The notes under the pieces are model-generated. The model had not been told where the DNA came from. It did not search any database and saw only the letters and a program-made list of their open reading frames with translations. A program made the translations under genes and the position numbers. Of a DNA stretch of 64,000 nt, positions 30,051-64,000 are shown in pieces (the stretch's first letter is position 1; every line of letters begins with the position of its first letter). The DNA is from an uncultured Bacilli bacterium (GTDB lineage Bacteria; Bacillota_I; Bacilli_A; RF39; UBA660), in NCBI GenBank assembly GCA_934086145.1, contig CAKOHV010000002.1:450-64449 (forward strand), read 5' to 3'.

Positions 30051-30078
30051 ATGCGCTTCTTTCATCAGCGACAAGTAG

Positions 30079-30565: not shown

Positions 30566-30596
30566 CAAATAGTCTTATGAAAAGACGCAAGTGCTT

Positions 30597-48225: not shown

Positions 48226-48816
48226 TTAAACCCTTTCATCAAAATTAAACTTTTTATTAACAACTAAACTTATTAAATAAGCTATAACTACTAAGATTAA
48301 AACTTTTAAGAAAGCTAATGGATTGGTCAAACTTTGAATTAAGCTTGTTCCAACAAACCCCCAAAAGATAATTGTAAATAATTTGCTGATTAACAAAGCA
48401 TACAAGAATTTTCTAGTTTTTATCTTCGATAATCCAGCCCCTAAATTTATAAAAAAAGAAGGTGTAAAAGGAATCGCCATTAGAAGAACTAAATTGGAAA
48501 ACTTGATGTTATCAACAATTTTCATAAATTTCTTTATTTGTTCTTTATCATCAATAAAACGATAAAAAAAGGCTCTAACTCCTTTACGAAAAAGGAAAAA
48601 AGTTAGCATACATCCAATTACTGTACAAATCCACGAAATGATTGTTCCAAAAACGGGCCCTAAAGTCATAAAATTAATTGTTACAAAAACAAATAATGGT
48701 AAAAAAGCTAAAACGCCCTCTAAAATTACTAAAAGTGAACTAAGTACTGGAGCCCATATTCCTGCATGTAACAAAAAGTTATTCAACCATAAATTTATAC
48801 CTTCTAAAAATTCCAT
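48226..48816 (-). CDS. TVP38/TMEM64 (DedA-related, VTT domain) membrane protein
   Basis: Polytopic protein of about 196 aa with a family-typical layout. The call comes from overall pattern rather than a strict motif. Confidence 0.55.
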   Translation of the reverse strand: MEFLEGINLWLNNFLLHAGIWAPVLSSLLVILEGVLAFLPLFVFVTINFMTLGPVFGTIISWICTVIGCMLTFFLFRKGVRAFFYRFIDDKEQIKKFMKIVDNIKFSNLVLLMAIPFTPSFFINLGAGLSKIKTRKFLYALLISKLFTIIFWGFVGTSLIQSLTNPLAFLKVLILVVIAYLISLVVNKKFNFDERV

Positions 48817-48881
48817 AATCATCACACTCTAATTATAAGTTAAACAATAATAAAAGACAATAAACCAATCAAAATTTGACG

Positions 48882-49189: not shown

Positions 49190-49215
49190 CAAAAAAAGAG
49201 ATGATTAATCATCTC
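49190..49215 (-). terminator. Rho-independent terminator at the end of the T4SS operon
   Basis: On the minus strand: gagatga-ttaa-tcatctc followed by a T7 run. It includes the coupling-protein stop codon. Confidence 0.65.
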
Positions 49216-52096: not shown

Positions 52097-52161
52097 GTCA
52101 TTAATCACCCCAAATATATGAATATATTATACTACACAAAATAATTATAATCTATTAATAA

Positions 52162-52902
52162 TTATTTATATTTTCGACTACTAACTTTAGTAATCAGCAC
52201 AACTACTATTAAGAGCAACAATATGGCTCCGATAGCACATAAAATAGCATATTCTTTCTTTATTTTTTCATCTTCACTTTTATCTTTTTTAGTATCATCA
52301 ATTGTTGTAGCTTCATCTTTTTTAGTACTTAATTTTAAATAAATATTTTTTTTATTGTCACTTTGTGTAAACGTCCAATAATATATATCACCTTTTTTAG
52401 AATCAGCATTATTTTCTAAGACTTTTAATTTAGTCTTAACTTTAATCGTTACACTATCTAAATTACTATAATTTTTTAAATAAATTATGCCATTATTGTC
52501 AGTAAACAAAGTTAAAGTCTTGGCTTGATTGTCTTTTTCAAGATAAGCAGATACAAATGATGTTTTTACACTTCGAGCTTTATTATAATTACTTACCGAA
52601 AATTTATTTTTGTAACTAAATAAATAACCATTATCAATTTCTTTCATTGTTTGTTCATAGTAACTTACTCCCGATAAAGCAACATCAGGTTCTGTATCAG
52701 CAACATTAACATCATTATAGATTGGTACATATTTTCTAAAAATACCTTTTAAACTTTCCTTTGTATTATATTGATCAACCAAGGCCGTAATATTTATTTC
52801 TTCTACTACCTTATTTTCATCAATTTCCAAAGTTACATCAGCACTACAACCACAAAGAAATAACATCATAACAAACAGTAATATAGCTTTTCTTTTTTTC
52901 AT
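52162..52902 (-). CDS. T4SS-associated lipoprotein with additional C-terminal TM anchor
   Basis: Lipobox LFLCGC, a soluble domain of about 190 aa, a K/D/E linker, and TM CAIGAILLLLIVVVLITKV. It occupies the PrgL/VirB8-like slot between hydrolase and coupling protein. Confidence 0.6.
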   Translation of the reverse strand: MKKRKAILLFVMMLFLCGCSADVTLEIDENKVVEEINITALVDQYNTKESLKGIFRKYVPIYNDVNVADTEPDVALSGVSYYEQTMKEIDNGYLFSYKNKFSVSNYNKARSVKTSFVSAYLEKDNQAKTLTLFTDNNGIIYLKNYSNLDSVTIKVKTKLKVLENNADSKKGDIYYWTFTQSDNKKNIYLKLSTKKDEATTIDDTKKDKSEDEKIKKEYAILCAIGAILLLLIVVVLITKVSSRKYK

Positions 52903-52906: not shown

Positions 52907-55273
52907 TTATCCCCTCACATTGGCCGAATTATTATAATATCCATCCATTTTAACCCCCCAATATCCAGGTGATGAGAAACCTCTTTTAGTAAATAAAACT
53001 CCACTAGTATTTCCCATTGCTTCTGCACATATATAATGTTTAGTTTCTTCATCAATCCCAACAATCAAAACAATATGCCCATTAGACTCAAGTAAATCTC
53101 CTGGTTCTAAAACTGCACTATCAGTCAAAACAACTTTTTGAACACCCGACATATTTTGGAATTGGTTCGCCAAAATAGCCCAAGACATATTAAATCCCCC
53201 GTTATGAATAGTCCAGGAAACAAAACCAGAGCAATCAAAACCACAATAGTTATATGACTGACTATTAGCATACGTATGACAAGCTGTACTACCCCAATTG
53301 GCTTTTGCATAGTCATTAATGGGTCCTTCATGACCGCCACCCCAATAATAAGGTATTTTAACTTGATAATTATTACCGAGCTCAGCAATCAACGTAACCG
53401 CCGCTGCCACAACACCAGCCCTTGTTCCATATCCAGCCTTTTTAACATTCTTTTCAATCAAACTATTAAATTCTTCTAAACTTGTTCCCTTACTACTTAA
53501 AAATGACGATAAGTCTTGATGTAAAATTTCATTCCCATCACTAGAAATAGTATAATCACCATAATCAATATTTCCAGCACTATTTGAATGACACTTAGCT
53601 GAACTAAAATCACTTACATTATAAACACTTTGTAAGATTTGTTCATAAGACTTTCCTTCATTAGCCATATTTATAAATTGACTAGACTTCGTACTATTAT
53701 AACTAGTAGCATAAACATTTCCCGTTGAATCAAGTAAGACTTTTCCTTTAACATCTTCTGCTAAAGCTAATACTTCTGTCTTACGTTGCTCACTTAAAGC
53801 ACTTTTCCATAATGTTCCACTTTTAATTTCTGGTGAATAAATTGAAATTTTTCCTCTATCCAAACGATAAATATCTTTCTCGTAATCCCAATAAACTTGA
53901 TCCTGCTCACAAGCACGCATTCTTATTTTTTTAGTCGTTGTATTATATCCATAGAAACAAGAATCAGGGTTGCCTGGACACATTCCACTATTTCTTGTAA
54001 GTGCAAAGTTACGCGCTGCCACAATTTGTGCTTTGATAGCTTCATCAGGTGAATTTGGTCCAATCTCAGCCAAAGCAACTCCTAAAGTATACTTTTCAAA
54101 ATCAATCGTTTCTAAAACGGTATAATTTCCTTGTGTTGCATCACAATTAACAAGTTCAACTTTAACATCATCTAAAGAAACATTACCCGTATTAGTAACA
54201 CCTCTTAAATCATAAGTACATTGTGTTCCAGAATTTCTTTTTTTACTATTACCGGATGAACCAGCCCCAAGGCAAACAAATAAAATAAGAAGAAAAAGAA
54301 TTAAAAAACCTATTATAAACCAAGCAAAAGGATTAGTAAGTAAAAAGTGTTTTAAGGCTCCAAGAGCAGCCTTAGCAGCCATCCTAAAAGGATTACTGGC
54401 ACCTTCCTTAATATTGTTTGTTTTACTTAAAAGACTACCAACTTTTCCTTTAATACCACCACTTTTTTTACTACTTGAGCCATCACTACCACTAGAAGTT
54501 CCAGCAGCATCTCCACTCTTTTTATTGCCAAACTTATTTAAGAAGCCCTTACTTGAAGTGCCTTCTTCTTCAGCACGGCCCTCTTTCATTTTTTTCCCGA
54601 AAGAAAAATTTTTTCGATTCAATTCATCACGTTTAGAATTAGCACGCGAATCTTTGGAATATCCGTTACCAAAAGGCTCACTACCATTCATATTAGAACG
54701 AATACGTGAAGCAGGAGAATTATCGCGAACTGGAACAGAATCTTTTCCAGTCCCCCCAGGATTAGCCTCATTATTACCTTTGGCTTGATTATCTGAAGCT
54801 CCATTTGCTAAAGCTGCCGGCCCAGTTAAAGCTTTCGCTTCTTCATCATTTTCATTCTTTTTTTTATTTTCATCATCATCTTTTTTTGAAGGATCAGCCT
54901 CTTTATTAGCAGAATCAGGACTGGATACTTTATCACCATTCAAATTATTATTTTCGCCGACATTTTTATTATATCCATTTCTTACAGGTCTTCCAAAAGG
55001 ATAAGGTTGATAACTAGAACCTCCATCATCAAAGTCATCTAGTGAAGCAGAATCATCCTGCGGAATATAATCATCAGCCTCCCCATATTGGTTATCAGCA
55101 TCCATATTATGTAAAATATTATTTAAAATAATATCACTTTGTTCATCATCATTATAATCATCAAAGCCAACTTGCGAAGCCAATGAAGAAAGAATTTCTT
55201 GTTCACTTAAGCCATTAGGTACACTTAGCCCTAATTTTTTTGCTATTTCTTTTGTATCATCATTTAGAGCCAC
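52907..55273 (-). CDS. T4SS peptidoglycan hydrolase: disordered N-terminus + TM + SpoIID/LytB-like domain + NlpC/P60 endopeptidase
   Basis: YTLGVALAEIGPNSPDEAIKAQIVAARNFALTR is a SpoIID-type signature. The C-terminal YYWGGGH...GFDCSGFVSW...GHIVLIVG carries the NlpC/P60 Cys-His. TM at FAWFIIGFLILFLLILFVCLG. Confidence 0.8.
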   Translation of the reverse strand: MALNDDTKEIAKKLGLSVPNGLSEQEILSSLASQVGFDDYNDDEQSDIILNNILHNMDADNQYGEADDYIPQDDSASLDDFDDGGSSYQPYPFGRPVRNGYNKNVGENNNLNGDKVSSPDSANKEADPSKKDDDENKKKNENDEEAKALTGPAALANGASDNQAKGNNEANPGGTGKDSVPVRDNSPASRIRSNMNGSEPFGNGYSKDSRANSKRDELNRKNFSFGKKMKEGRAEEEGTSSKGFLNKFGNKKSGDAAGTSSGSDGSSSKKSGGIKGKVGSLLSKTNNIKEGASNPFRMAAKAALGALKHFLLTNPFAWFIIGFLILFLLILFVCLGAGSSGNSKKRNSGTQCTYDLRGVTNTGNVSLDDVKVELVNCDATQGNYTVLETIDFEKYTLGVALAEIGPNSPDEAIKAQIVAARNFALTRNSGMCPGNPDSCFYGYNTTTKKIRMRACEQDQVYWDYEKDIYRLDRGKISIYSPEIKSGTLWKSALSEQRKTEVLALAEDVKGKVLLDSTGNVYATSYNSTKSSQFINMANEGKSYEQILQSVYNVSDFSSAKCHSNSAGNIDYGDYTISSDGNEILHQDLSSFLSSKGTSLEEFNSLIEKNVKKAGYGTRAGVVAAAVTLIAELGNNYQVKIPYYWGGGHEGPINDYAKANWGSTACHTYANSQSYNYCGFDCSGFVSWTIHNGGFNMSWAILANQFQNMSGVQKVVLTDSAVLEPGDLLESNGHIVLIVGIDEETKHYICAEAMGNTSGVLFTKRGFSSPGYWGVKMDGYYNNSANVRG

Positions 55274-55347
55274 ACAACCACCACCTAATTAACAACTACT
55301 TAGAGTATATCACAAAAAAAGCATAAAAAAAAGCTAGTAACAGATTA

Positions 55348-57132
55348 CTATAATCCGCCACCGGCTCCAAATGAATCAAGTTCTTCTTGTGTACATATAA
55401 TTCTAATACGCATTCGTCGACTACCACATATAAATAAGGCATCTCCTTGATTATAATATTTAATACTATCCATTTCACTTTCGTTTAAGTCAACAAGTAA
55501 CGATAAATCCTCAACAGCTTGCTTTTTCAAGTTCATAACTAAATAGTAAGCTGCATTATCAAAAATAGCTTTACCATGCATAATTAAGTTTGGTGCAGCA
55601 AAGTCTGTTGGTTGTTGTGTAATAATAACCGTTCCTGTATTATACTTTCTTGCACGTCTTTGAATTTGCGCTAAGAACTCCGCCCCTAACTCATTTCTTG
55701 TTGATAATAAAACATGAGCTTCATCAACACACAAAACAGTGGTTGTTTCTTTATCTAAACATAAGCCCCAAGCAAATTTCAAGATGTTAAAGAATAAGGC
55801 ATTTCTAATATTCTCATCACTATTCATCAATTCTTTAATATTAAAAACAATAATATTACTATCAATTTTTAAAGTTGTATGTCCCGTAAAATAATATCTT
55901 AACTCACCTACTAAAGGACGAACCTTCAACTCAAGTCTTTCCATAATATCACGTTCACGTGTCTTTTCTGGCATTGATAATAAGCGACCTCTTATTGTTG
56001 CATAAACATCATCAAAAGTTGGAAAGTCTTGAGGTGTTAATTTAGAAAAGTCTGTATTAAAGTCTATTCGATATCTCTTATAAGTATCTTGAACTACTTC
56101 ACTAAACATCGCCAAAACATCTTCTTCAATAGATGGTGAATAATATTTCATAAAAGCTTTTAAAGATTGTAACCCTCTTGTTAATACAGTATACCCTAAG
56201 CCTTGTTCTAATTCTTCTTGGTCAGCATCAGCAACGATTTCCAATGGATTAATCATTCCATAGTCGCCACCTTTACCTAAGTCAAGGAAACTACCATTAA
56301 CATTTTTGCACATTTCCTCAAGTTCACCTTCAGGATCGACACAAATAACTTTATAACCATTTCTAATATGACTTCTAATTAATAATTTAGCAGCAGTTGA
56401 TTTACCACTACCAGATGTACCTAAAATAATCATATTAGCATTATTACGGTTATGTTCTTTCTTTAACTTAAATAAGAACTGATTAAATAAGATAACACCA
56501 CCTGAGAAATCAACACCTAATAAAGTTGAATCACCAGGGTCCTTAATACTATCGAAAACAAAAGGATACATTGCTGAAATAGTTACAGAAGGAATTGGCG
56601 TACCAATTCTTTCTTCAACGTCTTGTTTTGGGAAAATTGGAATCATTGATTTTAAAACTTTTTCTTGTTCAAACATCAGTGGAATGGCACGCATTCCTAA
56701 GGCATCAATATAACTCTTAACTTGCATTAAACGCATTTCTAATTCTTCTGGATTATCAGCAGTAATCATAACATGTAATTGAAAGTCGAAAATACGAGCT
56801 TGTGTAGCTGCTAACATTGAAATAAAACTTTCCAACGATTCATAATCTTGACGAATTCTTTCCTGAATTGTTTGGTCTTTTTCAGATTGATATCTCATCT
56901 TCAAGTCAGCTATTTCTTTATTTAACATTGATCTTAAAGTTGAAAATTCAATCGGAATATGTTTTGCAACAATTTTTACCCCAGCTAAATTAGTAAGATT
57001 AGCTAAAAAGCCTGGACTAATATATTTAGGATAACTAATAACCGACAAAATTGTTGCATTCTTACCACTTATTACGAAATCTTTATAATTAAATAAAATT
57101 CCTTTTGGCGCAATTTCACTTTTTAGATTCAT
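55348..57132 (-). CDS. virB4: VirB4-family T4SS ATPase, C-terminal (ATPase) part
   Basis: Walker A GTSGSGKST, VICVDPEGE, Walker B VLCVDEAHVLL, and IITQQPTDF. Confidence 0.85.
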   Translation of the reverse strand: MNLKSEIAPKGILFNYKDFVISGKNATILSVISYPKYISPGFLANLTNLAGVKIVAKHIPIEFSTLRSMLNKEIADLKMRYQSEKDQTIQERIRQDYESLESFISMLAATQARIFDFQLHVMITADNPEELEMRLMQVKSYIDALGMRAIPLMFEQEKVLKSMIPIFPKQDVEERIGTPIPSVTISAMYPFVFDSIKDPGDSTLLGVDFSGGVILFNQFLFKLKKEHNRNNANMIILGTSGSGKSTAAKLLIRSHIRNGYKVICVDPEGELEEMCKNVNGSFLDLGKGGDYGMINPLEIVADADQEELEQGLGYTVLTRGLQSLKAFMKYYSPSIEEDVLAMFSEVVQDTYKRYRIDFNTDFSKLTPQDFPTFDDVYATIRGRLLSMPEKTRERDIMERLELKVRPLVGELRYYFTGHTTLKIDSNIIVFNIKELMNSDENIRNALFFNILKFAWGLCLDKETTTVLCVDEAHVLLSTRNELGAEFLAQIQRRARKYNTGTVIITQQPTDFAAPNLIMHGKAIFDNAAYYLVMNLKKQAVEDLSLLVDLNESEMDSIKYYNQGDALFICGSRRMRIRIICTQEELDSFGAGGGL

Positions 57133-57716
57133 GAAGGCATCACCGTCCCAAAACTTGTCGTCATTCCACCATTCAAGAAGTTATCTAAAATCATACGTAA
57201 GTCTGAATTTGAAACTTGAACAGAATTAATTGAACAATTTGCCAAACCAGCAATTAAATTATGAATTCTCTTTTGAACTAATTCCAATCTTTTCTCTTTA
57301 AACAAAATGAAATATTCTGTATCAACAACATTATATTCTGCTCCCATAAAAGCATTAGCTTTATTAAGATCTTGCATAATAAGTTTTCTTATAGCTCCAT
57401 CAGTACATCTCTGATAAAGTAATTGTAGTTGTGATAAGTATAAATTTATATCAACCGGTCTATCTGCTACCATTAACCAGAATTCATAATCAATCATATT
57501 ATAGAAATTCTGCAAATTAAACAAGATATTATCAATTTCTCCTGAATCAAGAATAAAAATATTTTTAGGTGATATTTTTATTCCCGTAACGTAAGCTCCA
57601 TTATCTAGTTGAATCATACCATTCATTATATTTCTTATAGGTACCCAATCTTCTGTATATCTACTAGAAGTTTGTACGGCTACCGCGCTTTGGTCTGTCG
57701 CTGCCATAACTAGCAC
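57129..57716 (-). CDS. virB4: VirB4-family N-terminal domain encoded as a separate ORF
   Basis: 195 aa with WVPIRNIMNGMIQLDNGAYVTGIKISPKNIFILD, typical of the Gram-positive VirB4 N-terminus. Its TGA overlaps the ATG of the ATPase part (ATGA at 57129-57132). Confidence 0.7.
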   Translation of the reverse strand: MLVMAATDQSAVAVQTSSRYTEDWVPIRNIMNGMIQLDNGAYVTGIKISPKNIFILDSGEIDNILFNLQNFYNMIDYEFWLMVADRPVDINLYLSQLQLLYQRCTDGAIRKLIMQDLNKANAFMGAEYNVVDTEYFILFKEKRLELVQKRIHNLIAGLANCSINSVQVSNSDLRMILDNFLNGGMTTSFGTVMPS

Positions 57717-58005
57717 ACCATCCTCTCCAATAATACTTTTTAATTCCTGTTAAAAAGCTCCACATATTTTTTAATAAGGTTAAAACATTATGATAATAAA
57801 CTGGTAAAGGGGCTACTAGCAAGGCCGCAATTAAAGCGGGCGATGCTAGTAATAACAAGGTTGCAATATCATTTGTTTTAAATAGCAACAAAAGTAAACC
57901 AGCTATGGCAACTCCTGTTACAAAAATTGTTAAGTCAACGCCAGTAAACAAACCTAGGATAAGCCTTGATTTTTTAGCATTAGCCGGAATAATATATTTA
58001 TTCAT
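57664..58005 (-). CDS. PrgI/VirB3-like small T4SS membrane protein
   Basis: 113 aa with two TM helices (LILGLFTGVDLTIFVTGVAIAGLLLLLF and LLLLASPALIAALLVAPL). It sits immediately upstream of VirB4, as PrgI/Orf17 do. Confidence 0.6.
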   Translation of the reverse strand: MNKYIIPANAKKSRLILGLFTGVDLTIFVTGVAIAGLLLLLFKTNDIATLLLLASPALIAALLVAPLPVYYHNVLTLLKNMWSFLTGIKKYYWRGWCASYGSDRPKRGSRTNF

Positions 58006-58022: not shown

Positions 58023-60875
58023 CTATTTTTTACTTTCTTGTTTACGTTTTCTACTTTGAGCATCTACGTATTCATCAGACTTAATAATTTCATAAGTTGC
58101 AGATTCGGAAGCCTTTTTCATATCTTTAAACGGATCGCCACTAGGCGCAATTGTCTCCTTGATTTTTGTAGAATTAGTAGAAAGATATCTATTAAATTCA
58201 TCAACAGAAACTTTATTTTTTACTACACTACCATGAGAATCCTTAATAGTATAAGTTGGCCCAGATGAAGTAAATTCAACGTCAACATGATTACTGTTAT
58301 CTAGATTCATTTCGTACTTTTTACCAATCTGCATTTTTGATAAATCAACCTGACCATTTAAAATATTAGCACCAAAACTTTGTTCAAGATAATTTTCAAG
58401 TCGCATACCAGCAATCGTTGCTCCATTAGCTAAACGAAATGCCTCTTGGTTATCTCTAAAATAAGCTCTTATAGCACCTGACATTGCATTTTCACCAGTA
58501 GTAATTGCTTCAACCAACTGAGCTTGTACAGCTTTGGCTTTTTCGGCTTTTAATACATCAGTAGCAGCTTTTATTTGAGCATTTAAATTAGCAGATGCTT
58601 TTGCAAATTCAGGGCTTGTTGGATCCAAGACAAAATCACTAAGTTTTTCGTGTTTAGCTTCAAAATCAGCTTTAAAAGCTTTTTCAAACTTTGTATTATA
58701 TTCACTATCTCCCATTGTCAAAGAATTACCAAAATTTTTTCTAAAATCCTCATAAGCGGCTTTATCAGCTGCAGACATAGCTGCTGGATTGGCATTATAC
58801 TGTGCTTCCAATGCAGCTATTCTTGTTGCAAAAGCAGAATCATATTGAGCGTCAGTCATAGAAGGAGCACGAGCTGCAATTCTTTTACGAGCATTTTCAT
58901 ATTGTGCCTTAAACAAAGGTTCAAACGTCGATTTTTCAGTATTCTGAAGTTCAGTATAAACAAAATCCTTAACACTCATGGCCTTTAATCTATTCAAGTT
59001 ATCTTGTGCAGAATCTATAGTATCAGCTCTAACACTATTTTCAAGATAGGCTTTTAAACCAGCGACTTTATTTAAAGCATTAATTTGATTATCATAGTAT
59101 GACGTATCAACTGATCCGCCAGTTAAGAAAGAGCTAACTGTACTACGTGCATCATTAATATGGCCAGCCATTGAACCCTTTATCAATCCATTGAAAGCTT
59201 CATCATTAGCGTGTTGTTCATTATATGCCTTCCTGTGAACTCTAGCGTCATTAGCCGCTCTAACACCATTAGCTGTAGCATCTTTTACATCACGGAGTTT
59301 CATAGGATTTTTACGGAAATCACGAGCACCTCGATATCCAACTCTAGCACCAGCTGATAAACCACCTGCAACTCCACTAGCTGTCGAACGAATGAACCCT
59401 CTACCAAAAGCCTGAGCTTTACCAGTTAGTGTATCAGCTCTTTTCATTTCACCTCGAGCTCTCTGAACTCCAACACCAAAGTTTTGAGCAAAACTTCCTG
59501 CTGCTGCTAATCCTGTAGCCGCTGCTGTATAAAGACCACCTTCTGCCAATTTTTGACCTAATCCTAACTTCATATCCCCTGCTGGAATACCAAAAGTATC
59601 AGAAATAAGTTTAGGTGCTTGCTTAGCAAAAATAACTAAACCTAAAATCAAAATAACTCTAACAAAAAAGCCAATATCCATACTAAGCTCTTGATTATTA
59701 AATAAAATATTATTAGTTGACGATATTGTATTTAAATGGGTAATTATGTATACAACAACATACACAACTGATAATCGGACAAAAACTTCTAAAAAAGTAC
59801 TAATAATATTTTTTACCCATTTATCAAAATTAGGTCTGAACTTAGGTACAATTTGTAAGATCAAAGGAATTGGGGCAATAATTTGATAATAAGCTAATTT
59901 AGCAGCTCTTACTGCCATATCAATACTAAATGATAAAAAGGCATAAACAACAAAAGCTCCTACAAGTGTTGAAAAGAACCAATAATATTGAATTTCACCT
60001 TTAATATAGTTATCAGCAAAAACTATAAAAATTCCAAAGTCACCAGTACTAGTCGCATATGAGAAGGCTTGAGCCAAAGTAATTTCATCAGCCAGCGCAA
60101 TATCAACAGCATTAGTAACACCACCAATAACACCTGCACTACAAGCAGCGACAGTTCCGGCAACAGCAAGTGCACCAAATCCAAATGTAAAAACACTCGC
60201 CAATATTGCAGCTCCAACACCTATTGCGCACCCAGCAAGACTAATCGTCGTAATAGCCGGATGAACAAAGTAATCAGCATTTTTTCCAACTATATCATCC
60301 TCTGAAATATCATAAAGTTCTGATGGATGAAAAAAAGCCTGCCAAATATAAGTCGCTACAACATTACCTGCCGAATCAAACAAAGCTGAATCATCCTGAA
60401 CTTCACCAGCTGGCAAAGCCACTTCTCCATTGACAACAATATCATCATGAGAAGTTGTTCTAGAATCAGAAGCAAAGAACATTTTTGCTATAATATTACT
60501 TTGTAAAATGATATCTTGGCCCTGATAAATAAGATTAAAAATAACTGGTGTTAAAGCAAGGCCTAAAATACAAGTCACAACGCCTGTAATGACTTTCTTA
60601 CCAGACATATCTCCTTTTCCTAATTGATCAGGGTCAATAATAGCACGCAAAATAGAATAAGCTAAAACAAATAACATAGCAACGCCAATAATTATATATA
60701 ATTTATTAGCAATTGTTTGAAAAGCATCACTTGAAAGCAATTTTTGGGCAGCTAAAAGAGTGTAAATTTTATACATTTTAGCTATAGTTCCATAAACAAT
60801 ACCATCAAGTGTCAATAGCACTCCAGTAAAGGCCGCACCAATAGTTTCCCCAAGATCAAAAATTAATAAGTTCAT
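58023..60875 (-). CDS. VirB6-like polytopic T4SS channel protein with a soluble C-terminal extension of about 480 aa
   Basis: The N-terminal 470 aa or so hold many TM helices. The C-terminal half is Ala/Lys/Asn-rich and helical-looking. RBS GAAGGTGA. Confidence 0.65.
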   Translation of the reverse strand: MNLLIFDLGETIGAAFTGVLLTLDGIVYGTIAKMYKIYTLLAAQKLLSSDAFQTIANKLYIIIGVAMLFVLAYSILRAIIDPDQLGKGDMSGKKVITGVVTCILGLALTPVIFNLIYQGQDIILQSNIIAKMFFASDSRTTSHDDIVVNGEVALPAGEVQDDSALFDSAGNVVATYIWQAFFHPSELYDISEDDIVGKNADYFVHPAITTISLAGCAIGVGAAILASVFTFGFGALAVAGTVAACSAGVIGGVTNAVDIALADEITLAQAFSYATSTGDFGIFIVFADNYIKGEIQYYWFFSTLVGAFVVYAFLSFSIDMAVRAAKLAYYQIIAPIPLILQIVPKFRPNFDKWVKNIISTFLEVFVRLSVVYVVVYIITHLNTISSTNNILFNNQELSMDIGFFVRVILILGLVIFAKQAPKLISDTFGIPAGDMKLGLGQKLAEGGLYTAAATGLAAAGSFAQNFGVGVQRARGEMKRADTLTGKAQAFGRGFIRSTASGVAGGLSAGARVGYRGARDFRKNPMKLRDVKDATANGVRAANDARVHRKAYNEQHANDEAFNGLIKGSMAGHINDARSTVSSFLTGGSVDTSYYDNQINALNKVAGLKAYLENSVRADTIDSAQDNLNRLKAMSVKDFVYTELQNTEKSTFEPLFKAQYENARKRIAARAPSMTDAQYDSAFATRIAALEAQYNANPAAMSAADKAAYEDFRKNFGNSLTMGDSEYNTKFEKAFKADFEAKHEKLSDFVLDPTSPEFAKASANLNAQIKAATDVLKAEKAKAVQAQLVEAITTGENAMSGAIRAYFRDNQEAFRLANGATIAGMRLENYLEQSFGANILNGQVDLSKMQIGKKYEMNLDNSNHVDVEFTSSGPTYTIKDSHGSVVKNKVSVDEFNRYLSTNSTKIKETIAPSGDPFKDMKKASESATYEIIKSDEYVDAQSRKRKQESKK

Positions 60876-60886: not shown

Positions 60887-61306
60887 CTAACCAATCCCAC
60901 ATGTTCCATACCAACCTAAAAGTTCAAAGAAAAAATTAATTAAACTTGGTATAAAGAATAGCATCAATGCTAAGAATATTCTTTTTCCTGTTTTTTTAGT
61001 GGCTTTCGCCAATGCATCCTTATCTTCACTAGCTATTGCCTTAACAAATTCTACAATCGATAAAACAACTACCAATGATGGCGCCAAAAATTTCATAACA
61101 TTAAAAATTTGTTGCAAATAATTAGCAAAAGTCCCATCAACAGTTGGGTCCCCAAAAATAGCATCACAACCAGCATCTTGACTATCATTTCCATCTAATG
61201 CATAGATAATACTATCATCATTAAGCCCTCGAGCTTCTACTACATTAAAGGATAAAGTGAATATCATTAATAATGCCAAGAAAAAATATAAACTTTTTTT
61301 TAACAT
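60887..61306 (-). CDS. VirB2/TrbC-like pilin candidate A (signal peptide + two hydrophobic helices)
   Basis: ATG at 61306 after AGAGGTG. Signal peptide MLKKSLYFFLALLMIFTLSFNVVEA. The mature part has ..C..-helix-KAIASEDKDALAKATKKTGKR-helix(FFIPSL)-..C. Confidence 0.5.
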   Translation of the reverse strand: MLKKSLYFFLALLMIFTLSFNVVEARGLNDDSIIYALDGNDSQDAGCDAIFGDPTVDGTFANYLQQIFNVMKFLAPSLVVVLSIVEFVKAIASEDKDALAKATKKTGKRIFLALMLFFIPSLINFFFELLGWYGTCGIG

Positions 61307-61381: not shown

Positions 61382-61705
61382 TTAACAAGTTCCTGAATTA
61401 ACTATACATTCTTTACAAACTGCATAGTCGCCTTCTTCGTTGAAAGTATCTGCTAAAGAGAACGCAAATCCAACGAGTGAAGGAACAAAGAATATTAAAA
61501 TTCCAGCCAAAGCTCTCATACCTAAATTTTTGGCAGCTTTTTTAATTTCTTTATCATCACTTGCTACAACAGCCTTACCTAAATCAATCATACCAAAGAT
61601 TATAACTAATAGAGGTATAACAATTTTAAAAACTCCTAAAATTCTACCTACTAAAACCCAAACATCTTTAGTACCGCTACAAAAAGCAACATCTAATAAA
61701 TTCAT
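61382..61705 (-). CDS. VirB2/TrbC-like pilin candidate B (paralog of candidate A)
   Basis: 107 aa: ..C..-helix(IVIPLLVIIFGMIDL)-KAVVASDDKEIKKAAKNLGMR-helix(FFVPSLVGFAF)-...CKECIVNSGTC. The core is shared with the 139-aa neighbour. Confidence 0.5.
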   Translation of the reverse strand: MNLLDVAFCSGTKDVWVLVGRILGVFKIVIPLLVIIFGMIDLGKAVVASDDKEIKKAAKNLGMRALAGILIFFVPSLVGFAFSLADTFNEEGDYAVCKECIVNSGTC

Positions 61706-61767
61706 ACATACATCTCCTTTACTTACTCATAATTGTACCAAATATTCGTAATCTGTCAAGTTTTTAT

Positions 61768-62844
61768 CTATTCCTTAACGATTCCAAACAACCTAGCCCC
61801 TCTATTGCCATCATTAGCTGGTTTATTCTTATCAAAACCAAGTTTATTTAAGAACTCATCTAAAACACGATGACGCTCTTTTTTATCATCAAGCGGTGGA
61901 ATATTTTGAAATACTGAGCATCTTGCTTCATATTCAAAATCTTTAACATCGTTCGAATCAAGTAAACTTTTATTAAGAACAACTTTCTTTCCCTTAATCT
62001 TATCCAAGATATTACGATCTCTTCTAATCATTTTATTAAGCATTAAGGTCGAAGGCTCAATCAAATAAATCATTTCTGAACAATTAGCTTCTTCTGAGCT
62101 ATCATTAACATCTACAAGAACAACTTGTGTTCCCATTGTATTTCCCTTAATAAAAGCTCCTAATTCTTTACTACTCATACTACGTAGGTTTTGATCGTTA
62201 AAGAACATAAAATCATTTTTATCTAATTCAATTCCTAAAACGGAATAGTTTTCCTCAAGTTGTTTTTTCAACATATATATTAAGGTTGTTGCTCCAGCAT
62301 GATCTGTTAAATCTTTAAAACCAATTACACGAGTTCCACCTACCATAGGCATTGCTATACTGGCATTAATAAAGTTTCTTTCCTCTCTATTATTACCACG
62401 ACGATTATCTTTTCTTGAATTATTTGGGACTTCCATTTCCTGTGAAGCCATCATATTACTAGCACCTAACATATGGTACTGAGCAACATCTTTATACGTA
62501 TTAGGATTATCAATCAAATAAACTATGCCATCTATATTCTTAGTAAAGTTATAAATTCCCATCGAAACAAGTTCTGACATATATTGAGGTGAATTGACCT
62601 CTGGTGAGTCATCTAATAATAGAATAACTCTTGTCATATCCATTCCGAATGATAGTCTTTGTATTTGTGAAATATCTCGATAATTTCTAATAGCAGTTAT
62701 ATCAAGAATCATTTTATTAAAGAAGAAGTTATCAAACTGTGCTACTAATTCATCAGCATCAAATTCTCCATTTATACTTTTTATTAAATCTATATTTAAG
62801 TTTGAAAGCATTGCTGCATATTTATTCGAAACAATTACATTCAT
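61768..62844 (-). CDS. TadZ/CpaE-like protein: receiver-like N-domain + MinD/ParA-fold domain with degenerate Walker A
   Basis: ATG at 62844, 5 nt after the upstream stop, with an AGGA RBS. The C-domain follows the MinD beta/alpha order (RVIGFKDLTDHAGATTLIYMLKKQL, VVLVDVN, MIYLIEPS, KVVLNKS, IPPLDD), but the P-loop lacks GK[ST]. Confidence 0.5.
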   Translation of the reverse strand: MNVIVSNKYAAMLSNLNIDLIKSINGEFDADELVAQFDNFFFNKMILDITAIRNYRDISQIQRLSFGMDMTRVILLLDDSPEVNSPQYMSELVSMGIYNFTKNIDGIVYLIDNPNTYKDVAQYHMLGASNMMASQEMEVPNNSRKDNRRGNNREERNFINASIAMPMVGGTRVIGFKDLTDHAGATTLIYMLKKQLEENYSVLGIELDKNDFMFFNDQNLRSMSSKELGAFIKGNTMGTQVVLVDVNDSSEEANCSEMIYLIEPSTLMLNKMIRRDRNILDKIKGKKVVLNKSLLDSNDVKDFEYEARCSVFQNIPPLDDKKERHRVLDEFLNKLGFDKNKPANDGNRGARLFGIVKE

Positions 62845-62848: not shown

Positions 62849-63385
62849 CTACACACACTCCTGACCAATTGAATCTTGTGGAAATGATATTTTAGATGTT
62901 TTTCCATCAATTTCAAAAGTTAAAATATCACCTATGACAGGCAAATTAAACTTATAAAATACTACAACATCATAGTAAGCAGCATCATTTTCAGCCCCCC
63001 ACATTTTCTCTTTTCTAAAACAATAATAATATTTACCTTTATTTTTTGAATATGAGACTTTTTTATTATAAGCTAGGTCATCTACTCCGCAATAACCAGT
63101 TGGGCAAGTCCCCTTAGTATTATAAGAACTCCCAAGCAAAAAAAGGTTAATTGTTTGCAGTGTTCCAAAATTACCCGTCACAGTCGTCCCCGATTTTACT
63201 TTCGATTCCATACTTTTCCCAGTTTTATTAGTTATTCCATCATGTTTTTCTATAATAGTTAACATTTCATTTTTTATTTTAAATACCTTAGAATAACTTA
63301 TGGAAACTGCTAAATACCCTGAAAACAATAGTATAAATAGAACAATCATTCCAAGTAACCATACATTAGAAATTGCATTTTTCAT
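62849..63385 (-). CDS. N-terminally anchored four-Cys extracytoplasmic protein (paralog 2)
   Basis: 178 aa. It has an N-terminal hydrophobic helix (VWLLGMIVLFILLFSGYLAV), the shared core YSK.(F/Y)K(I/V)K...CP(T/S)...PVIGD(I/V), and a C-terminal Cys. Confidence 0.6.
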   Translation of the reverse strand: MKNAISNVWLLGMIVLFILLFSGYLAVSISYSKVFKIKNEMLTIIEKHDGITNKTGKSMESKVKSGTTVTGNFGTLQTINLFLLGSSYNTKGTCPTGYCGVDDLAYNKKVSYSKNKGKYYYCFRKEKMWGAENDAAYYDVVVFYKFNLPVIGDILTFEIDGKTSKISFPQDSIGQECV

Positions 63386-63401
63386 TAAACGTCACTCCAT
63401 T

Positions 63402-63878
63402 CTAACATGTTGGATTTTTTAGCAGTTCTTTCTTTTCATTTGGAATTACCACAAATGATGTTTCACCATCTAAGGTAAATTTAACAACATCACCAATAAC
63501 CGGCATATCCATTTTGAAGAATACTTTAACTGAATAATATGCTGTTTTAGGATGTCCAATAGCTGTTCTGTATACACAATGTTTTTGGATACAGAAGCTA
63601 TTTGGTGAACCTATTCCTGCATTGAAGTTAAAGCCTATCCAATCATTATCACTAGGACATTTCCCCGTTGTACGATATCCAACTTCGCCTAAATAGTTTT
63701 TTATAGCGGTCGTTGATGAGTCATTTACACCACCATACTGTTCAATATAAAACAATATTTGGTCTTTTACTTTATAGCTTTTTGAATAGTTTATTGATAC
63801 TGACATATAGCAAGCAAAAACAACAACAAACACAATAACGATTGTTAAAAGCCATGATCCACCAATTGCTTCTTTCAT
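63402..63878 (-). CDS. N-terminally anchored four-Cys extracytoplasmic protein (paralog 1)
   Basis: 158 aa. MKEAIGGSWLLTIVIVFVVVFACYMSVSINYSKSYKVKD... parallels the 178-aa neighbour, and it ends ...NPTC. Confidence 0.6.
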   Translation of the reverse strand: MKEAIGGSWLLTIVIVFVVVFACYMSVSINYSKSYKVKDQILFYIEQYGGVNDSSTTAIKNYLGEVGYRTTGKCPSDNDWIGFNFNAGIGSPNSFCIQKHCVYRTAIGHPKTAYYSVKVFFKMDMPVIGDVVKFTLDGETSFVVIPNEKKELLKNPTC

Positions 63879-63886
63879 ATCATCAC

Positions 63887-64000
63887 CTAGCCTCTATATG
63901 GACATTCAAAAGTCTCACTTTTGCTCGTTCCAGGAGAATAGCAATAAGCCATAGCATTTGAGTTGATTCCTACATCACAAATTGCATCAGAACATTTTGC
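63887..64000 (-). CDS. 3' end of a further Cys-rich ORF (partial, continues beyond the window)
   Basis: The last 37 codons read AKCSDAICDVGINSNAMAYCYSPGTSKSETFECPYRG, then TAG at 63887-63889. The RBS for the next gene follows. Confidence 0.5.
   Translation of the reverse strand, partial: AKCSDAICDVGINSNAMAYCYSPGTSKSETFECPYRG

What the first reader, a model, noticed from the sequence alone, without database searches (positions are those of the whole stretch)
62849..64000. Family of N-anchored, four-cysteine extracytoplasmic proteins at the head of the T4SS operon
The 158-aa and 178-aa proteins are clear paralogs. Both start MK(E/N)AI...W.L then a helix, share YSK.(Y/F)K(V/I)K, CP(S/T), YY.V.VF(F/Y)K..(M/L)PVIGD(V/I)..F..DG(E/K)TS, and end in Cys. 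The upstream partial ORF also ends in a Cys-rich segment (four Cys in the last 37 aa). An N-terminal helix plus a small beta-rich body recalls TadE/TadF or minor-pseudopilin-like proteins. I see no prepilin-peptidase motif (no G/xxxxE), so they may be a new class of T4SS surface or tip components. Multiple conserved extracellular Cys are uncommon in Gram-positive surface proteins and imply disulfide dependence.
Basis: partly seen in the sequence, partly recalled or inferred. Interest (0 to 1): 0.65.

Follow-up and report, generated by a model that had tools for sequence, protein, structure and literature searches.

The report
Pilin-like pair in Tad–T4SS hybrid
Two neighbouring genes encode fast-evolving, membrane-anchored, disulfide-bearing surface proteins of a large unnamed family that probably are the larger subunits of a pilus-building (Tad-like) module joined to a Gram-positive DNA-transfer machine in uncultured gut bacteria; Gram-positive conjugation systems are generally thought to lack any pilus.

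Summary
The two ORFs are real paralogous genes on the minus strand: 63402-63878 (158 aa) and 62849-63385 (178 aa), 31% identical, E 2e-27. They belong to an unnamed family without a Pfam model (1,530 cluster representatives). Only two of the four Cys are invariant, and the genes are not at the head of the operon. A near-identical contig shows more than 10 kb of same-strand genes beyond position 64000. These encode a giant Cys-rich protein, DUF5411, a CpaB/RcpC-like protein, a VirB11/CpaF-type ATPase, two T2SSF-related membrane proteins and two small four-Cys pilin-like proteins. The finding's partial ORF is the 3' end of one of the small proteins. This order, followed by VirB2/6/3/4, a wall hydrolase and the coupling protein, recurs in about 30 loci from gut Bacilli MAGs. 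All the N-anchored proteins share a six-residue start (MKEAxG) but no known prepilin-peptidase site. The N-terminal half is remotely homologous to DUF4320, the family of pLS20 gene 40 (hhalign 91%). Long family members carry extracellular InlB-repeat or peptidoglycan-peptidase modules. Best reading (about 0.5): they are minor or modular pilin-like subunits of a Tad-like filament serving a pLS20-type T4SS. Cleavage, polymerisation and conjugative function are untested. No relaxase was seen.

The parts
63887..64000 (-). 3' end (37 codons plus stop) of a 77-aa small pilin-like protein ('pil77'). The full gene is seen in L001 9759-9992. It starts MKEA[LT]GELN, has one hydrophobic helix, then a short C-terminal body with four invariant Cys.
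   Evidence: Translation. Full-length orthologue in L001. Four Cys conserved in 22/22 orthologues. Paralogous to the 80-aa 'pil80' just upstream (hhalign 99.8%). Weak archaeal Pilin_N hits in three relatives (E 0.019-0.068).
63402..63878 (-). 158-aa member of the unnamed family ('p158'). It starts MKEAIGGSW, has a hydrophobic helix, then a helix-loop-helix and a four-stranded sheet. C74 and C96 are invariant; C101 and C158 are variable.
   Evidence: AF2 pLDDT 83.8. 99%-identical protein P0002 in public data.
62849..63385 (-). 178-aa paralog ('p178'). It starts MKNAISNVW and has the same architecture, with a 20-residue insertion after the first helix pair and four Cys.
   Evidence: A tandem p158-like + p178-like pair is present in nearly every related locus.
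61768..62844 (-). 358-aa cytoplasmic protein ('p358', ATG at 62844). It is always the next gene after the pair. It may be a degenerate ParA/MinD (TadZ/CpaE-like) protein, but this is not established.
   Evidence: No Pfam or NCBIfam hit. Conserved at about 71% identity across loci. Only a weak in-register match of residues 173-210 to the Walker-A region of ParA-like proteins (hhalign E 0.0018, probability 15%).
61732..61759 (-). Best promoter-like site of the region (TTGACA-16-TACAAT with TG), in the 62-nt gap before the VirB2-like gene. It may be an internal promoter separating the pilin/Tad-like genes from the T4SS genes.
   Evidence: Consensus match only; the number of sites in the region is not above the shuffled expectation.
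61382..61705 (-). 107-aa VirB2-like T4SS pilin.
   Evidence: Pfam T4SS_pilin E 4.8e-5, below the cut-off.
60887..61306 (-). About 139-aa protein (ATG at 61306; listed as a 164-aa TTG ORF). It has a Sec signal peptide and two C-terminal membrane helices. It may be a second VirB2-like protein.
   Evidence: Weak NCBIfam ICE_Mbov_0396_TM hit.
58023..60875 (-). 950-aa extended VirB6-like membrane protein.
   Evidence: NCBIfam pLS20_p028 family E 2.1e-7 and Mbov_0396 family E 8.2e-7, both below cut-off.
55348..58005 (-). VirB3/PrgI-like (113 aa, 57664-58005), TraC-like VirB4 N-domain (195 aa, 57129-57716) and VirB4 ATPase (594 aa, 55348-57132). The three-ORF split is conserved.
   Evidence: VirB4 versus pLS20-family VirB4: E 3e-37.
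52907..55273 (-). 788-aa cell-wall hydrolase (SpoIID domain, weak NlpC/P60), the VirB1 analogue.
52162..52902 (-). 246-aa protein between the hydrolase and the coupling protein. Function unknown.
   Evidence: No Pfam hit. Only a weak match of its N-terminus to the TraV lipoprotein model. Its position is conserved.
49205..52108 (-). 967-aa VirD4-type coupling protein, the last gene of the cluster. A terminator-like hairpin follows at 49216-49197.
   Evidence: Pfam T4SS-DNA_transf E 1.5e-55. Hairpin.

Best explanation
The 158-aa and 178-aa proteins are a conserved tandem pair from a large, unnamed, fast-evolving protein family. Each has a short conserved N-terminus (M-[KR]-E-[AS]-I-[GSA]), one hydrophobic helix, and an extracytoplasmic alpha/beta body held by one invariant Cys pair.

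They are the larger pilin-like subunits of a Tad-like (type-IV-filament-type) module. That module comprises a CpaB/RcpC-like protein, a VirB11/CpaF-type ATPase, two T2SSF-related platform proteins, two 77-80-aa four-Cys small pilin-like proteins and DUF5411. It is encoded directly upstream of, and on the same strand as, a pLS20-type monoderm T4SS in uncultured gut Bacilli.

Proposed mechanism (inferred, not shown):
1. All these N-anchored proteins insert with the body outside the membrane.
2. The ATPase/platform motor extracts them from the membrane and stacks them through their shared N-terminal helices into a short wall-crossing fibre.
3. The small proteins form the shaft. The p158/p178 pair, perhaps with DUF5411, acts as minor or tip subunits.
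4. In some relatives these subunits carry adhesin repeats or a peptidoglycan peptidase, and they may present the giant Cys-rich protein.
5. The fibre makes or stabilises cell contact for the adjacent T4SS.

Shown: paralogy, family size, conserved synteny, the shared N-terminal segment, extracellular fusion partners, Cys conservation, and remote homology to DUF4320 (the pLS20 gene 40 family). Inferred: leader cleavage, polymerisation, tip location and a role in DNA transfer.
For: - Paralogy: E 2e-27.
- Family size: 90 close homologues and 1,530 representatives, with no Pfam model or name.
- Synteny: the order [~240 aa]-giant-DUF5411-CpaB-like-ATPase-TM~300-TM262-small pilins-p158-p178-~340 aa-VirB2-like-VirB6-VirB3-VirB4N-VirB4-hydrolase-~246 aa-T4CP recurs in about 30 loci.
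- CpaB-like protein: TIGR03177 E 4e-7 and RcpC E 2e-5.
- ATPase: T2SSE E 2e-25; VirB11 E 5.9e-32 and TadA-type E 1.9e-31.
- Platform proteins: TM297 and TM262 are homologous to the pair downstream of CpaF in a Priestia plasmid (hhalign 96%, E 1e-9 to 3.5e-9). The first of that pair is annotated as T2SS F family, with Pfam T2SSF E 3.4e-5.
- Shared N-terminal motif across five gene families. p158 versus pil77 aligns residues 1-26 in register (hhalign 84%, E 7e-6), whereas six other membrane proteins of the cluster score <=2%.
- Position 6 holds only G, S or A apart from two outliers in each set.
- AF2 model: 45-residue N-terminal helix, a second helix and a four-stranded sheet.
- Long family members carry C-terminal Flg_new (6/10) or Peptidase_M15 (2/10) modules, which places the body outside the cell.
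- Cys: two are invariant, and counts are even in 85/90 members.
- Divergence: p158/p178 are 38-42% identical between loci, against 80-88% for the ATPase, platform proteins and VirB4. This is expected for exposed subunits.
- The N-terminal half (residues 9-66) matches a 71-sequence profile of the DUF4320 / pLS20 gene 40 family at 91-92% probability, E about 1e-6. That gene sits in the equivalent position in the pLS20-family, pZB18 and C. perfringens conjugation operons.
Against: - No known prepilin-peptidase site in any member or in the small pilin-like proteins.
- No A24 peptidase in the cluster or among the window ORFs scanned.
- Foldseek of a good model found no pilin, pseudopilin or other match (best E 0.2).
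- Pfam TadE matched 0/90 members; Tad (PF13400) matched 1/90 at E 0.028.
- Flank charges (N flank +0.4, C flank +1.7) do not favour an N-in anchor by the positive-inside rule.
- The T2SSF link rests on one sub-threshold Pfam hit, an NCBI annotation and profile-profile matches. The AF2 model of TM262 was too poor to test it (pLDDT 60.8).
- The ATPase scores as well against VirB11 as against TadA, so it could be a T4SS ATPase rather than a pilus motor.
- No filament has been reported for pLS20-type systems. The literature searched states that Gram-positive systems lack pili (PMC8557374, PMC11730352, PMC12102498).
Confidence: 0.5

Rival explanations
1. The pair are bitopic, non-polymerising structural subunits of the envelope machine. 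They would form a heterodimeric alignment or stator component (in the manner of PilN/PilO, GspL/M or VirB8/VirB10) that links the ATPase/platform or the T4SS channel to the cell wall. They stay anchored in the membrane and are never extracted into a fibre.
For: - Single N-terminal membrane helix that continues as a long helix, followed by a small alpha/beta domain.
- Always an adjacent paralogous pair, as PilN/PilO are.
- No prepilin-peptidase motif or peptidase.
- The homologous pLS20 gene 40 family is treated in the literature simply as an unknown, conserved T4SS-cluster gene (PMC8557374).
- Monoderm T4SSs lack a VirB10 equivalent, and the review notes that an unidentified component must fill that role (PMC12857230).
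Against: - Foldseek found no PilN/PilO/GspM or VirB8/NTF2 match.
- The first 26 residues align in register with the small pilin-like proteins but not with other membrane proteins of the cluster.
- The proteins evolve much faster than the core machine.
- Relatives carry adhesin repeats, as modular pilins do.
Confidence: 0.3
2. They are independent membrane-anchored surface proteins (adhesins, surface-exclusion factors or wall-remodelling factors). They are co-transcribed with the transfer genes but are not assembled by the ATPase/platform proteins.
For: - Extracellular modules (InlB-type repeats, M15 peptidase) are fused to some members.
- pLS20-type operons do encode separate adhesin (Tie) and exclusion (Ses) proteins near this position.
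- Sequence divergence is high.
Against: - The gene position between the small pilin-like genes and p358 is strictly conserved, and so is the tandem pair, in about 30 loci.
- The N-terminus is invariant and shared with four other gene families of the module.
- Most members (about 150-200 aa) have no recognisable binding module.
Confidence: 0.1
3. The whole cluster is not a conjugation system. It would be a chromosomally fixed, relaxase-less T4SS-plus-filament machine used by reduced-genome gut Bacilli for DNA uptake or cell-cell interaction. The pair would then serve contact with another cell rather than mating-pair formation.
For: - No relaxase or integrase was recognised in the cluster, in 30 other window ORFs scanned, or in the flanks of eight related loci.
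- The flanks look like housekeeping genes and partly recur: Metallophos upstream in L028-L031, VTT/DedA downstream in the window and L026.
- No plasmid carries p158 or TM262.
- The TM262 family is very abundant (at least 7,557 clusters) and is found on contigs of about 1 Mb.
- Precedent: an essential T4SS with pilin arrays in Saccharibacteria (PMC12857230).
Against: - A VirD4-type coupling protein is present.
- The closest characterised relatives are conjugative plasmids.
- Non-canonical relaxases could be among the unannotated ORFs.
- The flanks were examined over only about 10 kb in most loci.
Confidence: 0.25

Closest known systems
[quoted passage not shown]
   Same: - N-terminal membrane helix followed by a helix pair with the K..I...IE..GG[LV]T....I..Y signature. 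hhalign of the p158 family against a 71-sequence profile gives 91-92% probability, E about 1e-6, over residues 9-66.
- Same operon neighbourhood: after the VirB11/CpaF-type ATPase and its two membrane proteins, and before VirB2-like, T4CP, VirB6 and VirB3/4.
- A DUF5411-like gene lies upstream in both systems.
   Different: - Only the N-terminal half matches.
- The C-terminal sheet domain with the invariant Cys pair has no counterpart. DUF4320 proteins are about 120 aa and mostly Cys-free.
- The Pfam DUF4320 model reaches only E about 0.02 in 2/90 members.
- The gene is single in pLS20-type operons and a tandem pair here.
- The function of gene 40 is itself unknown (PMC8557374).
TadE/TadF pseudopilins and Flp pilins of Tad (type IVc) pili
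   Same: - Small N-anchored proteins encoded with a CpaF/TadA-type ATPase, two TadB/TadC-like platform proteins and a CpaB/RcpC-like protein.
- Two larger subunits accompany the small major subunits.
   Different: - No G/xxxxE[YF] site (0/90).
- No Pfam TadE hit.
- No TadV/A24 peptidase in the cluster.
- Conserved disulfide.
- The module is in one gene array with a T4SS.
Modular minor pilins of Gram-positive type IV pili (for example Streptococcus sanguinis PilB and PilC; own knowledge, not checked here)
   Same: A pilin-type N-terminal helix with functional modules grafted at the C-terminus. Here the modules are Flg_new repeats or an M15 peptidase in long family members.
   Different: Those pilins have canonical class III signal peptides with Glu5 and a PilD peptidase. 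They also belong to a stand-alone pilus, not to a T4SS cluster.
Type IV pilus plus T4SS partnerships in Gram-negative elements (IncI R64 thin pilus; PAPI-1)
   Same: A type-IV-filament machine encoded on the same element as VirB4/VirD4 aids or is required for DNA transfer (PMC12857230).
   Different: - Those are diderm systems with canonical T4b pilins and peptidases, in separate gene clusters.
- Here the host is a monoderm, and the pilin-like genes lie between the motor genes and the T4SS genes.
- None of the reviews read lists such a case for Gram-positives.
The CpaF + PilC/GspF + DUF5411 + InlB-like operon predicted in gut Clostridia by gene-embedding analysis (PMC9523054)
   Same: It shares DUF5411, the CpaF-type ATPase, a GspF-like membrane protein and a protein with InlB-like repeats. 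A Priestia plasmid shows the same stand-alone set plus DUF4320.
   Different: That paper reports an 8-9-gene secretion-related operon with no link to a T4SS. It does not describe the p158/p178 family.

Membership tests
Type IV pilins / pseudopilins (type IV filament superfamily) | Class III signal peptide: short leader ending in Gly, then a hydrophobic stretch with Glu5 (G|[FMLIVWY]xxxE), or the archaeal [KR][GA]| form. | tested here: not met
   Regex over the first 30 residues: 0/90 members, 0-1/143 representatives, 0/40 small pilin-like proteins. A different six-residue start (MKEAxG, with mainly G/S/A at position 6) is conserved instead.
Type IV pilins / pseudopilins (type IV filament superfamily) | Long N-terminal alpha-helix packed on an antiparallel beta-sheet ('lollipop' fold), recognisable by structure comparison. 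| tested here: inconclusive
   The AF2 model (pLDDT 83.8) has helix 3-47, helix 53-66 and four strands. Foldseek against PDB gave no pilin or other match (best E 0.2).
Type IV pilins / pseudopilins (type IV filament superfamily) | Encoded with a secretion ATPase and a GspF/PilC/TadB-type platform protein. | tested here: met
   T2SSE ATPase E 2e-25. TM297 and TM262 are homologous (hhalign 96%) to the Priestia T2SSF-annotated pair. The arrangement is conserved in about 30 loci. Direct Pfam T2SSF hits on TM297/TM262 themselves: none.
Type IV pilins / pseudopilins (type IV filament superfamily) | A24 prepilin peptidase in the genome and N-terminal processing. | not testable with these tools
   None is in the cluster or among 30 window ORFs scanned. 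The whole genome is not available, and cleavage needs an experiment.
TadE/TadF (Pfam TadE PF07811; Tad PF13400) | Match to the TadE-like N-terminal domain model. | tested here: not met
   TadE does not appear among the families listed for the 90 members at E<=0.1. Tad PF13400 matched 1/90 at E 0.028.
DUF4320 (PF14208) / pLS20 gene 40 family | Match to the family model over its length. | tested here: inconclusive
   The Pfam model matched 2/90 members at E about 0.02. Profile-profile comparison gave 91-92% probability, E about 1e-6, but only over the N-terminal 56 columns. The gene position is equivalent.
VirB8-like (NTF2-fold) T4SS subunits | NTF2-like periplasmic domain detectable by fold or sequence. 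| tested here: not met
   Foldseek found only one NTF2-like protein, at E 1.0 and probability 0.02. There was no sequence hit in the PDB profile search.
PilN/PilO/GspM-type alignment proteins | Ferredoxin-like periplasmic domain after a coiled coil, detectable by fold comparison. | tested here: not met
   No such chain is among the 50 best Foldseek matches. The negative is weak, because long helices hamper Foldseek.
pLS20-type monoderm conjugative T4SS (system level) | VirB4, VirD4-type T4CP, extended VirB6 (pLS20_p028 family), wall hydrolase and a VirB11-like ATPase in one array. | tested here: met
   ATPase best hits are pLS20-family, Enterococcus and Clostridium plasmids. VirB4 E 3e-37 against pBatNRS213. 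The VirB6 NCBIfam score is below cut-off.
pLS20-type monoderm conjugative T4SS (system level) | Relaxase and oriT, that is, a self-transmissible element. | tested here: not met
   No relaxase or integrase domain in the cluster, in 30 further window ORFs, or in the flanks of eight related loci. The scan was not exhaustive, and oriT was not tested.

The most novel reading that the evidence does not exclude
Monoderm T4SSs of the pLS20 lineage, including this abundant chromosomal version in gut Bacilli, would contain a previously unrecognised, highly diverged type-IV-filament engine: a CpaF/VirB11-type ATPase, TadB/TadC-like platform proteins and a CpaB-like protein. This engine would polymerise a new class of pilins defined by an MKEAxG N-terminus. 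They would be processed, if at all, by something other than an A24 peptidase; the neighbouring CPBP/Rce1-type intramembrane proteases are candidates. The p158/p178 family would provide disulfide-locked, module-carrying tip subunits. The fibre would be the missing 'conjugative pilus' of Gram-positive bacteria. In the relaxase-less chromosomal form, it would be a contact or DNA-exchange organelle of reduced-genome gut bacteria.
Probability: 0.3. Interest if true: 0.85.

Novelty: new variant of a known kind. Interest (0 to 1): 0.66.

Why it matters
Reviews and primary papers up to 2025 state that Gram-positive conjugation systems have no pilus and rely on adhesins (PMC11730352, PMC12102498, PMC12857230). 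In the model plasmid pLS20, genes 36-47 are still listed as 'unknown' (PMC8557374).

The evidence here links those unknown genes, and a much larger set of genes in uncultured gut Bacilli, to a Tad-like filament module with its own pilin-like substrates. The TM262 family has at least 7,557 clusters, and the p158 family has 1,530 representatives.

If the reading is right, it gives a concrete and testable answer to how such systems reach across a thick wall to a partner cell. It names the genes to delete in the tractable pLS20 system: 36-41 and their equivalents. It also defines a new pilin signal type.

If the reading is wrong, the family is still a large, conserved, unnamed component of a very common gut-bacterial envelope machine and deserves a family definition.

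Tried and rejected
- Pfam and NCBIfam scans of both proteins and of all 90 homologues gave only noise-level hits.
- PDB sequence profile search gave nothing.
- Foldseek of the good AF2 model against PDB gave no match better than E 0.2. VirB8/NTF2, PilN/O and pilin folds could therefore be neither assigned nor firmly excluded.
- The first related-loci run with the 90-sequence alignment failed because no stretch was conserved enough. A 16-sequence subfamily alignment worked.
- megablast of the region and tblastn of p158 and TM262 against plasmids found no match.
- PDB profile searches for TM297, TM262 and p358 gave nothing.
- AF2 of TM262 from a shallow alignment gave pLDDT 60.8, and the Foldseek result was meaningless.
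- p358 as TadZ/CpaE: hhalign against one ParA-like protein was negative. Against three it gave only a 38-column Walker-A match (E 0.0018, 15%). This is left as a hint.
- p358 versus pLS20-family gene 47: no similarity.
- The 195-aa VirB4 N-domain versus its pLS20 counterpart: not significant by BLASTP.
- Search for a prepilin peptidase, a thioredoxin/Dsb-like protein, a relaxase or an integrase among 30 window ORFs found none.
- Literature searches for DUF4320 (0 papers), and for pLS20 together with Tad/CpaF terms, found no prior description.
- The idea that the split VirB4 is a pseudogene was rejected, because the split is conserved everywhere.
Full report
1. THE OBSERVATION

All genes of the region are on the minus strand. 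The ORF list gives a 158-aa ORF at 63402-63878 and a 178-aa ORF at 62849-63385.

BLASTP of one against the other gives 31% identity over the full length, E 2e-27. Each protein has four Cys beyond the membrane helix.

The third ORF runs off the window. Its last 37 codons (63887-64000 with the stop) hold four Cys.

Gaps between the genes are 8-16 nt, and each start is preceded by a GGAG/AGGTGA-type motif.

A word-indexed profile search found 90 homologues, none with a Pfam domain or an informative name. An exhaustive profile scan of 1.84 billion cluster representatives found 1,530 at E<=1e-3 and 1,142 at E<=1e-10. The genes are therefore real and belong to a large unnamed family.

Two points of the finding need correction:
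- Only two Cys (C74 and C96 of the 158-aa protein) are invariant (90/90). 59/90 members have only those two, 21/90 have four, and about 26/90 have a C-terminal Cys.
- The pair is not at the head of the operon (section 2).

2. WHAT LIES BEYOND THE WINDOW END

The protein 99% identical to the 158-aa ORF (P0002) lies on a 151-kb metagenome contig (L001) that is collinear with the window.

Upstream on the same strand come, in order:
- a giant Cys-rich secreted protein (called as 1,869 aa)
- a DUF5411 protein (159 aa)
- a 266-aa protein
- a 537-aa ATPase
- two membrane proteins (297 and 262 aa)
- two small proteins of 80 and 77 aa
- the 158-aa and 178-aa pair

The window's partial ORF is the 3' end of the 77-aa protein.

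Downstream in the window come:
- a 358-aa protein
- a VirB2-like T4SS pilin (Pfam T4SS_pilin E 4.8e-5)
- a second small signal-peptide protein
- an extended VirB6-like protein (NCBIfam pLS20_p028 E 2e-7)
- a VirB3/PrgI-like ORF
- a TraC-like VirB4 N-domain ORF
- VirB4
- a SpoIID/NlpC hydrolase
- a 246-aa protein
- a VirD4-type coupling protein (E 1.5e-55)

A terminator-like hairpin sits at the coupling protein's stop codon.

Assignments of the upstream genes:
- The 266-aa protein matches CpaB/RcpC (TIGR03177 E 4e-7; RcpC E 2e-5).
- The ATPase matches T2SSE (E 2e-25). It scores equally against VirB11 (E 5.9e-32) and the TadA-type conjugal-transfer-associated ATPase model (E 1.9e-31).

3. HOW CONSERVED THE ARRANGEMENT IS

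A scan of one genome per species returned 22 loci. All came from MAGs of uncultured gut Bacilli: 'Tenericutes', Candidatus Coprovivens, Erysipelotrichaceae, and three labelled Muribaculaceae. Seven further look-ups of divergent family members gave more loci.

ORF calling plus BLASTP against the L001 proteins, together with the precomputed Pfam labels, show the same order nearly everywhere. It runs from a ~240-aa signal-peptide protein and the giant protein through to the coupling protein.

The family members always occur as an adjacent pair, with two exceptions: L023 has one, and L022 has two of the p158 type.

Median identity to the L001 orthologues:
- ATPase 82%
- the two membrane proteins 82% and 80%
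- VirB4 88%
- p358 71%
- p158 38%
- p178 42%
- the small proteins 52-54%
- the giant protein 28%

A conserved motor with fast-evolving N-anchored proteins is the pattern expected of exposed subunits.

The 262-aa membrane protein family alone has at least 7,557 clusters at 90% identity, all unnamed. Some lie on contigs of about 1 Mb.

4. THE PROTEINS THEMSELVES

AlphaFold2 with the 90-sequence alignment gives a confident model (pLDDT 83.8, pTM 0.74). It has a helix from residue 3 to 47, a second helix at 53-66 and four strands.

Foldseek against PDB found nothing (best E 0.2). No fold family can therefore be assigned.

The N-termini are the most informative feature. All five N-anchored families of the cluster begin with the same six residues followed by about 20 hydrophobic residues:
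- pil80 and pil77: MKEATGELN
- p158: MKEAIGG[ST]W
- p178: MK[ND]xI[SA]N[IV]W
- DUF5411: MKESYWGYW

Position 6 is G, S or A in all but two sequences of each set examined.

Profile-profile comparison aligns p158 residues 1-26 in register with pil77 (84%, E 7e-6) and with pil80 (50%, E 1.6e-4). Six other membrane proteins of the same cluster score 2% or less.

None of the sequences fits the bacterial G|[hydrophobic]xxxE, the Flp/TadE G|xxxxE[YF] or the archaeal [KR][GA]| pattern. The small proteins give repeated but weak hits to the archaeal Pilin_N model (E 0.019, 0.038, 0.068).

The topology was uncertain at first, because flank charges do not follow the positive-inside rule (N flank +0.4, C flank +1.7). 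Ten long family members settled it. Six carry C-terminal Flg_new (InlB B-repeat) modules, and two carry a Peptidase_M15 peptidoglycan peptidase. The body is therefore extracytoplasmic.

Extracytoplasmic Cys counts are even in 85/90 members. The four Cys of pil77 are invariant in 22/22 orthologues, and 17/18 pil80 orthologues have four Cys. Both fit disulfides. Half of the p158 orthologues in the Coprovivens-like loci have an extra Cys near position 34.

5. WHAT THE MODULE IS RELATED TO

tblastn of the ATPase core against plasmids gave as best hits the 'CpaF/VirB11 family' genes of Gram-positive conjugative plasmids. These include the pLS20 family, Enterococcus pZB18 and C. perfringens plasmids, together with a Priestia plasmid.

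The curated pLS20-family plasmid pBatNRS213 shows this order:
- Tie adhesin
- a 126-aa N-anchored protein
- VirB11-like ATPase
- 268-aa and 246-aa membrane proteins
- DUF4320 (120 aa, N-anchored)
- five small ORFs
- two 364-aa proteins
- VirD4
- extended VirB6
- 104-aa, 193-aa and 632-aa VirB3/VirB4 pieces
- VirB8-like

This is the same architecture as the window cluster. pZB18 and the C. perfringens plasmid are similar.

The 126-aa protein hits DUF5411 (E 6.3e-5).

The Priestia plasmid has a stand-alone set: DUF5411, SAF/RcpC, an AAA_31 ParA-like protein, CpaF/VirB11, a protein annotated as T2SS F family (Pfam T2SSF E 3.4e-5, 24.2 bits against a cut-off of 25.2), a second membrane protein and DUF4320.

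TM297 matches that T2SSF-annotated protein at 96.1% probability (E 3.5e-9 over 234 columns). TM262 matches its neighbour at 96.4% (E 1.2e-9). The two membrane proteins are thus TadB/TadC-like by transitive homology. Direct Pfam hits on them are absent, and a structure test failed.

The p158 family was compared with a 71-sequence profile of the DUF4320 / gene 40 family. The match is 91-92% probability, E about 1e-6, over residues 9-66, which cover the membrane helix and the helix pair. A four-sequence profile had given 67%. The C-terminal sheet domain with the Cys pair has no counterpart.

6. LITERATURE

- The pLS20-family paper lists genes 36 and 38-47 as unknown. It notes VirB11 as unusual for Gram-positives and says no pilus homologues are present (PMC8557374).
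- The December 2025 T4SS review describes T4P-T4SS partnerships only for IncI plasmids and PAPI-1, and VirB2 arrays for Patescibacteria (PMC12857230).
- A gene-embedding study predicted a CpaF + PilC/GspF + DUF5411 + InlB-like 'secretion-related' operon in gut Clostridia, without a T4SS link (PMC9523054).
- No paper mentions DUF4320. None combines pLS20 with Tad/CpaF terms.
- The library is limited to open-access papers and bioRxiv, so a description elsewhere cannot be excluded.

7. INTERPRETATION

Best-supported reading. The pair are the larger, modular, disulfide-stabilised pilin-like subunits of a Tad-like filament module that is genetically joined to a pLS20-type monoderm T4SS.

Shown:
- membership of the conserved module
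- the shared N-terminal segment
- the extracellular location
- Cys conservation
- fast divergence
- remote homology to the pLS20 gene 40 family

Inferred:
- leader processing
- extraction from the membrane by the ATPase and platform proteins
- polymerisation
- tip or minor-subunit position
- a role in partner contact

Main rival. The pair is a non-polymerising membrane-anchored heterodimer of the envelope machine, in the manner of PilN/PilO or a VirB8/VirB10 substitute. The data do not exclude this. No peptidase site, no peptidase and no structural match to pilins were found.

A separate open question is whether the cluster is conjugative at all. No relaxase or integrase was recognised in the cluster, in 30 other window ORFs, or in the flanks of eight related loci. 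The flanks look chromosomal: a cluster of 12 tRNA genes, aminoacyl-tRNA synthetases and sporulation genes. No plasmid carries the family.

8. VERDICT

The protein family is undescribed, and its system is a new variant of known kinds (Tad-type filament machines and pLS20-type T4SSs).

Interest is moderate to high. The result bears directly on the long-standing view that Gram-positive conjugation lacks a pilus, and it is testable in pLS20.

Noticed in passing
window 55348-58005 (minus); L033 22733-25534: VirB4 is encoded as three consecutive ORFs (113-aa VirB3/PrgI-like, 195-aa TraC-like N-domain, 594-aa ATPase). This holds in the window, in every related locus and in pLS20-family pBatNRS213 (104/193/632 aa). 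It is a conserved arrangement, not a frameshift.
   Followed up: partly
window 61732-61759 (minus); 49197-49216 and 55336-55362 (minus): The best promoter-like site of the region (11/12 match with an extended -10 TG) lies in the 62-nt gap between p358 and the VirB2-like gene. This suggests separate transcription of the T4SS part. Terminator-like hairpins sit right after the coupling protein and after VirB4.
   Followed up: no
L030 492-893, L031 18-701; L035 2641-3087; L036 3010-3450: CPBP/Rce1-like intramembrane protease genes lie next to the cluster in two gut-Bacilli loci, and inside the conjugation regions of Enterococcus pZB18 and a C. perfringens plasmid. They are a candidate, purely by location, for processing the MKEAxG N-termini.
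   Followed up: no
L033 14977-15213 (pBatNRS213, pLS20 family): The 78-aa homologue of pLS20 gene 45 passes the Pfam T4SS_pilin cut-off (28.8 bits against 26.6). The 2021 pLS20-family paper states that these plasmids have no VirB2 homologue.
   Followed up: partly
L013 9091-10758; proteins P0092, P0094, P0096, P0097, P0125, P0153, P0179: Long members of the p158/p178 family carry C-terminal Listeria-Bacteroides (InlB B-repeat) modules or a Peptidase_M15 (D-Ala-D-Ala dipeptidase-like) domain. They may be the 'InlB-like' proteins noted in the Clostridial DUF5411 operons of PMC9523054.
   Followed up: partly
L033 14147-14290 and 14316-14459; L035 8011-8163; L036 8113-8265: pLS20-type operons encode 47-50-aa proteins (MLDQN[AT]DR..W.IGAV...) with one central hydrophobic helix. 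By eye they resemble Flp-type pilins. There was no Pfam hit, and two identical copies occur in pBatNRS213.
   Followed up: no
L001 182-4708; L028 524-1240 and 1237-5070; L030, L031, L032 equivalents: The cluster starts with a ~240-aa signal-peptide protein that has a C-terminal membrane anchor and a KKRRR tail. Next comes a 1,000-1,900-aa secreted protein with 29-41 Cys and no Pfam domain. Nearly all exported components of the system are Cys-rich, which is unusual for an anaerobic Gram-positive host.
   Followed up: partly
L001 7040-7661 (ATPase residues ~340-537): The ATPase carries a long Q/V/P/N-rich low-complexity C-terminal tail. Its length varies widely between loci (total protein length 365-646 aa).
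   Followed up: no
window 28307-30685: Cluster of 12 tRNA genes (11 on the minus strand, 1 on the plus strand), flanked by two divergently oriented XRE-type HTH regulator genes (26598-27386 and 27558-28025).
   Followed up: partly
window 35528-36205, 52907-55273; L028 1-7: Sporulation-type genes or domains (YunB, a SpoIID domain, and CotZ in a related locus) show the host is a spore-forming, walled Bacillota member. The nearest genome (92% identical p158, L002) is nevertheless labelled 'uncultured Tenericutes'.
   Followed up: no
L018, L022, L023: Three loci carrying the cluster come from MAGs labelled Muribaculaceae (Bacteroidota). Mis-binning is more likely than transfer, given the Bacillota-type gene content, but this was not checked.
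   Followed up: no
L026 1-12325: In one lineage the cluster is rearranged. Hydrolase-259 aa-T4CP-VTT come first. A second block follows (496 aa, two small pilin-like genes, the family pair, 332 aa, 115 aa, 134 aa). No ATPase or platform genes are seen within 10 kb.
   Followed up: no
window 48226-48825; L026 4769-5356: A VTT/DedA-family membrane protein gene follows the coupling-protein gene both in the window and in the rearranged locus L026. It may belong to the module rather than to the host flank.
   Followed up: no
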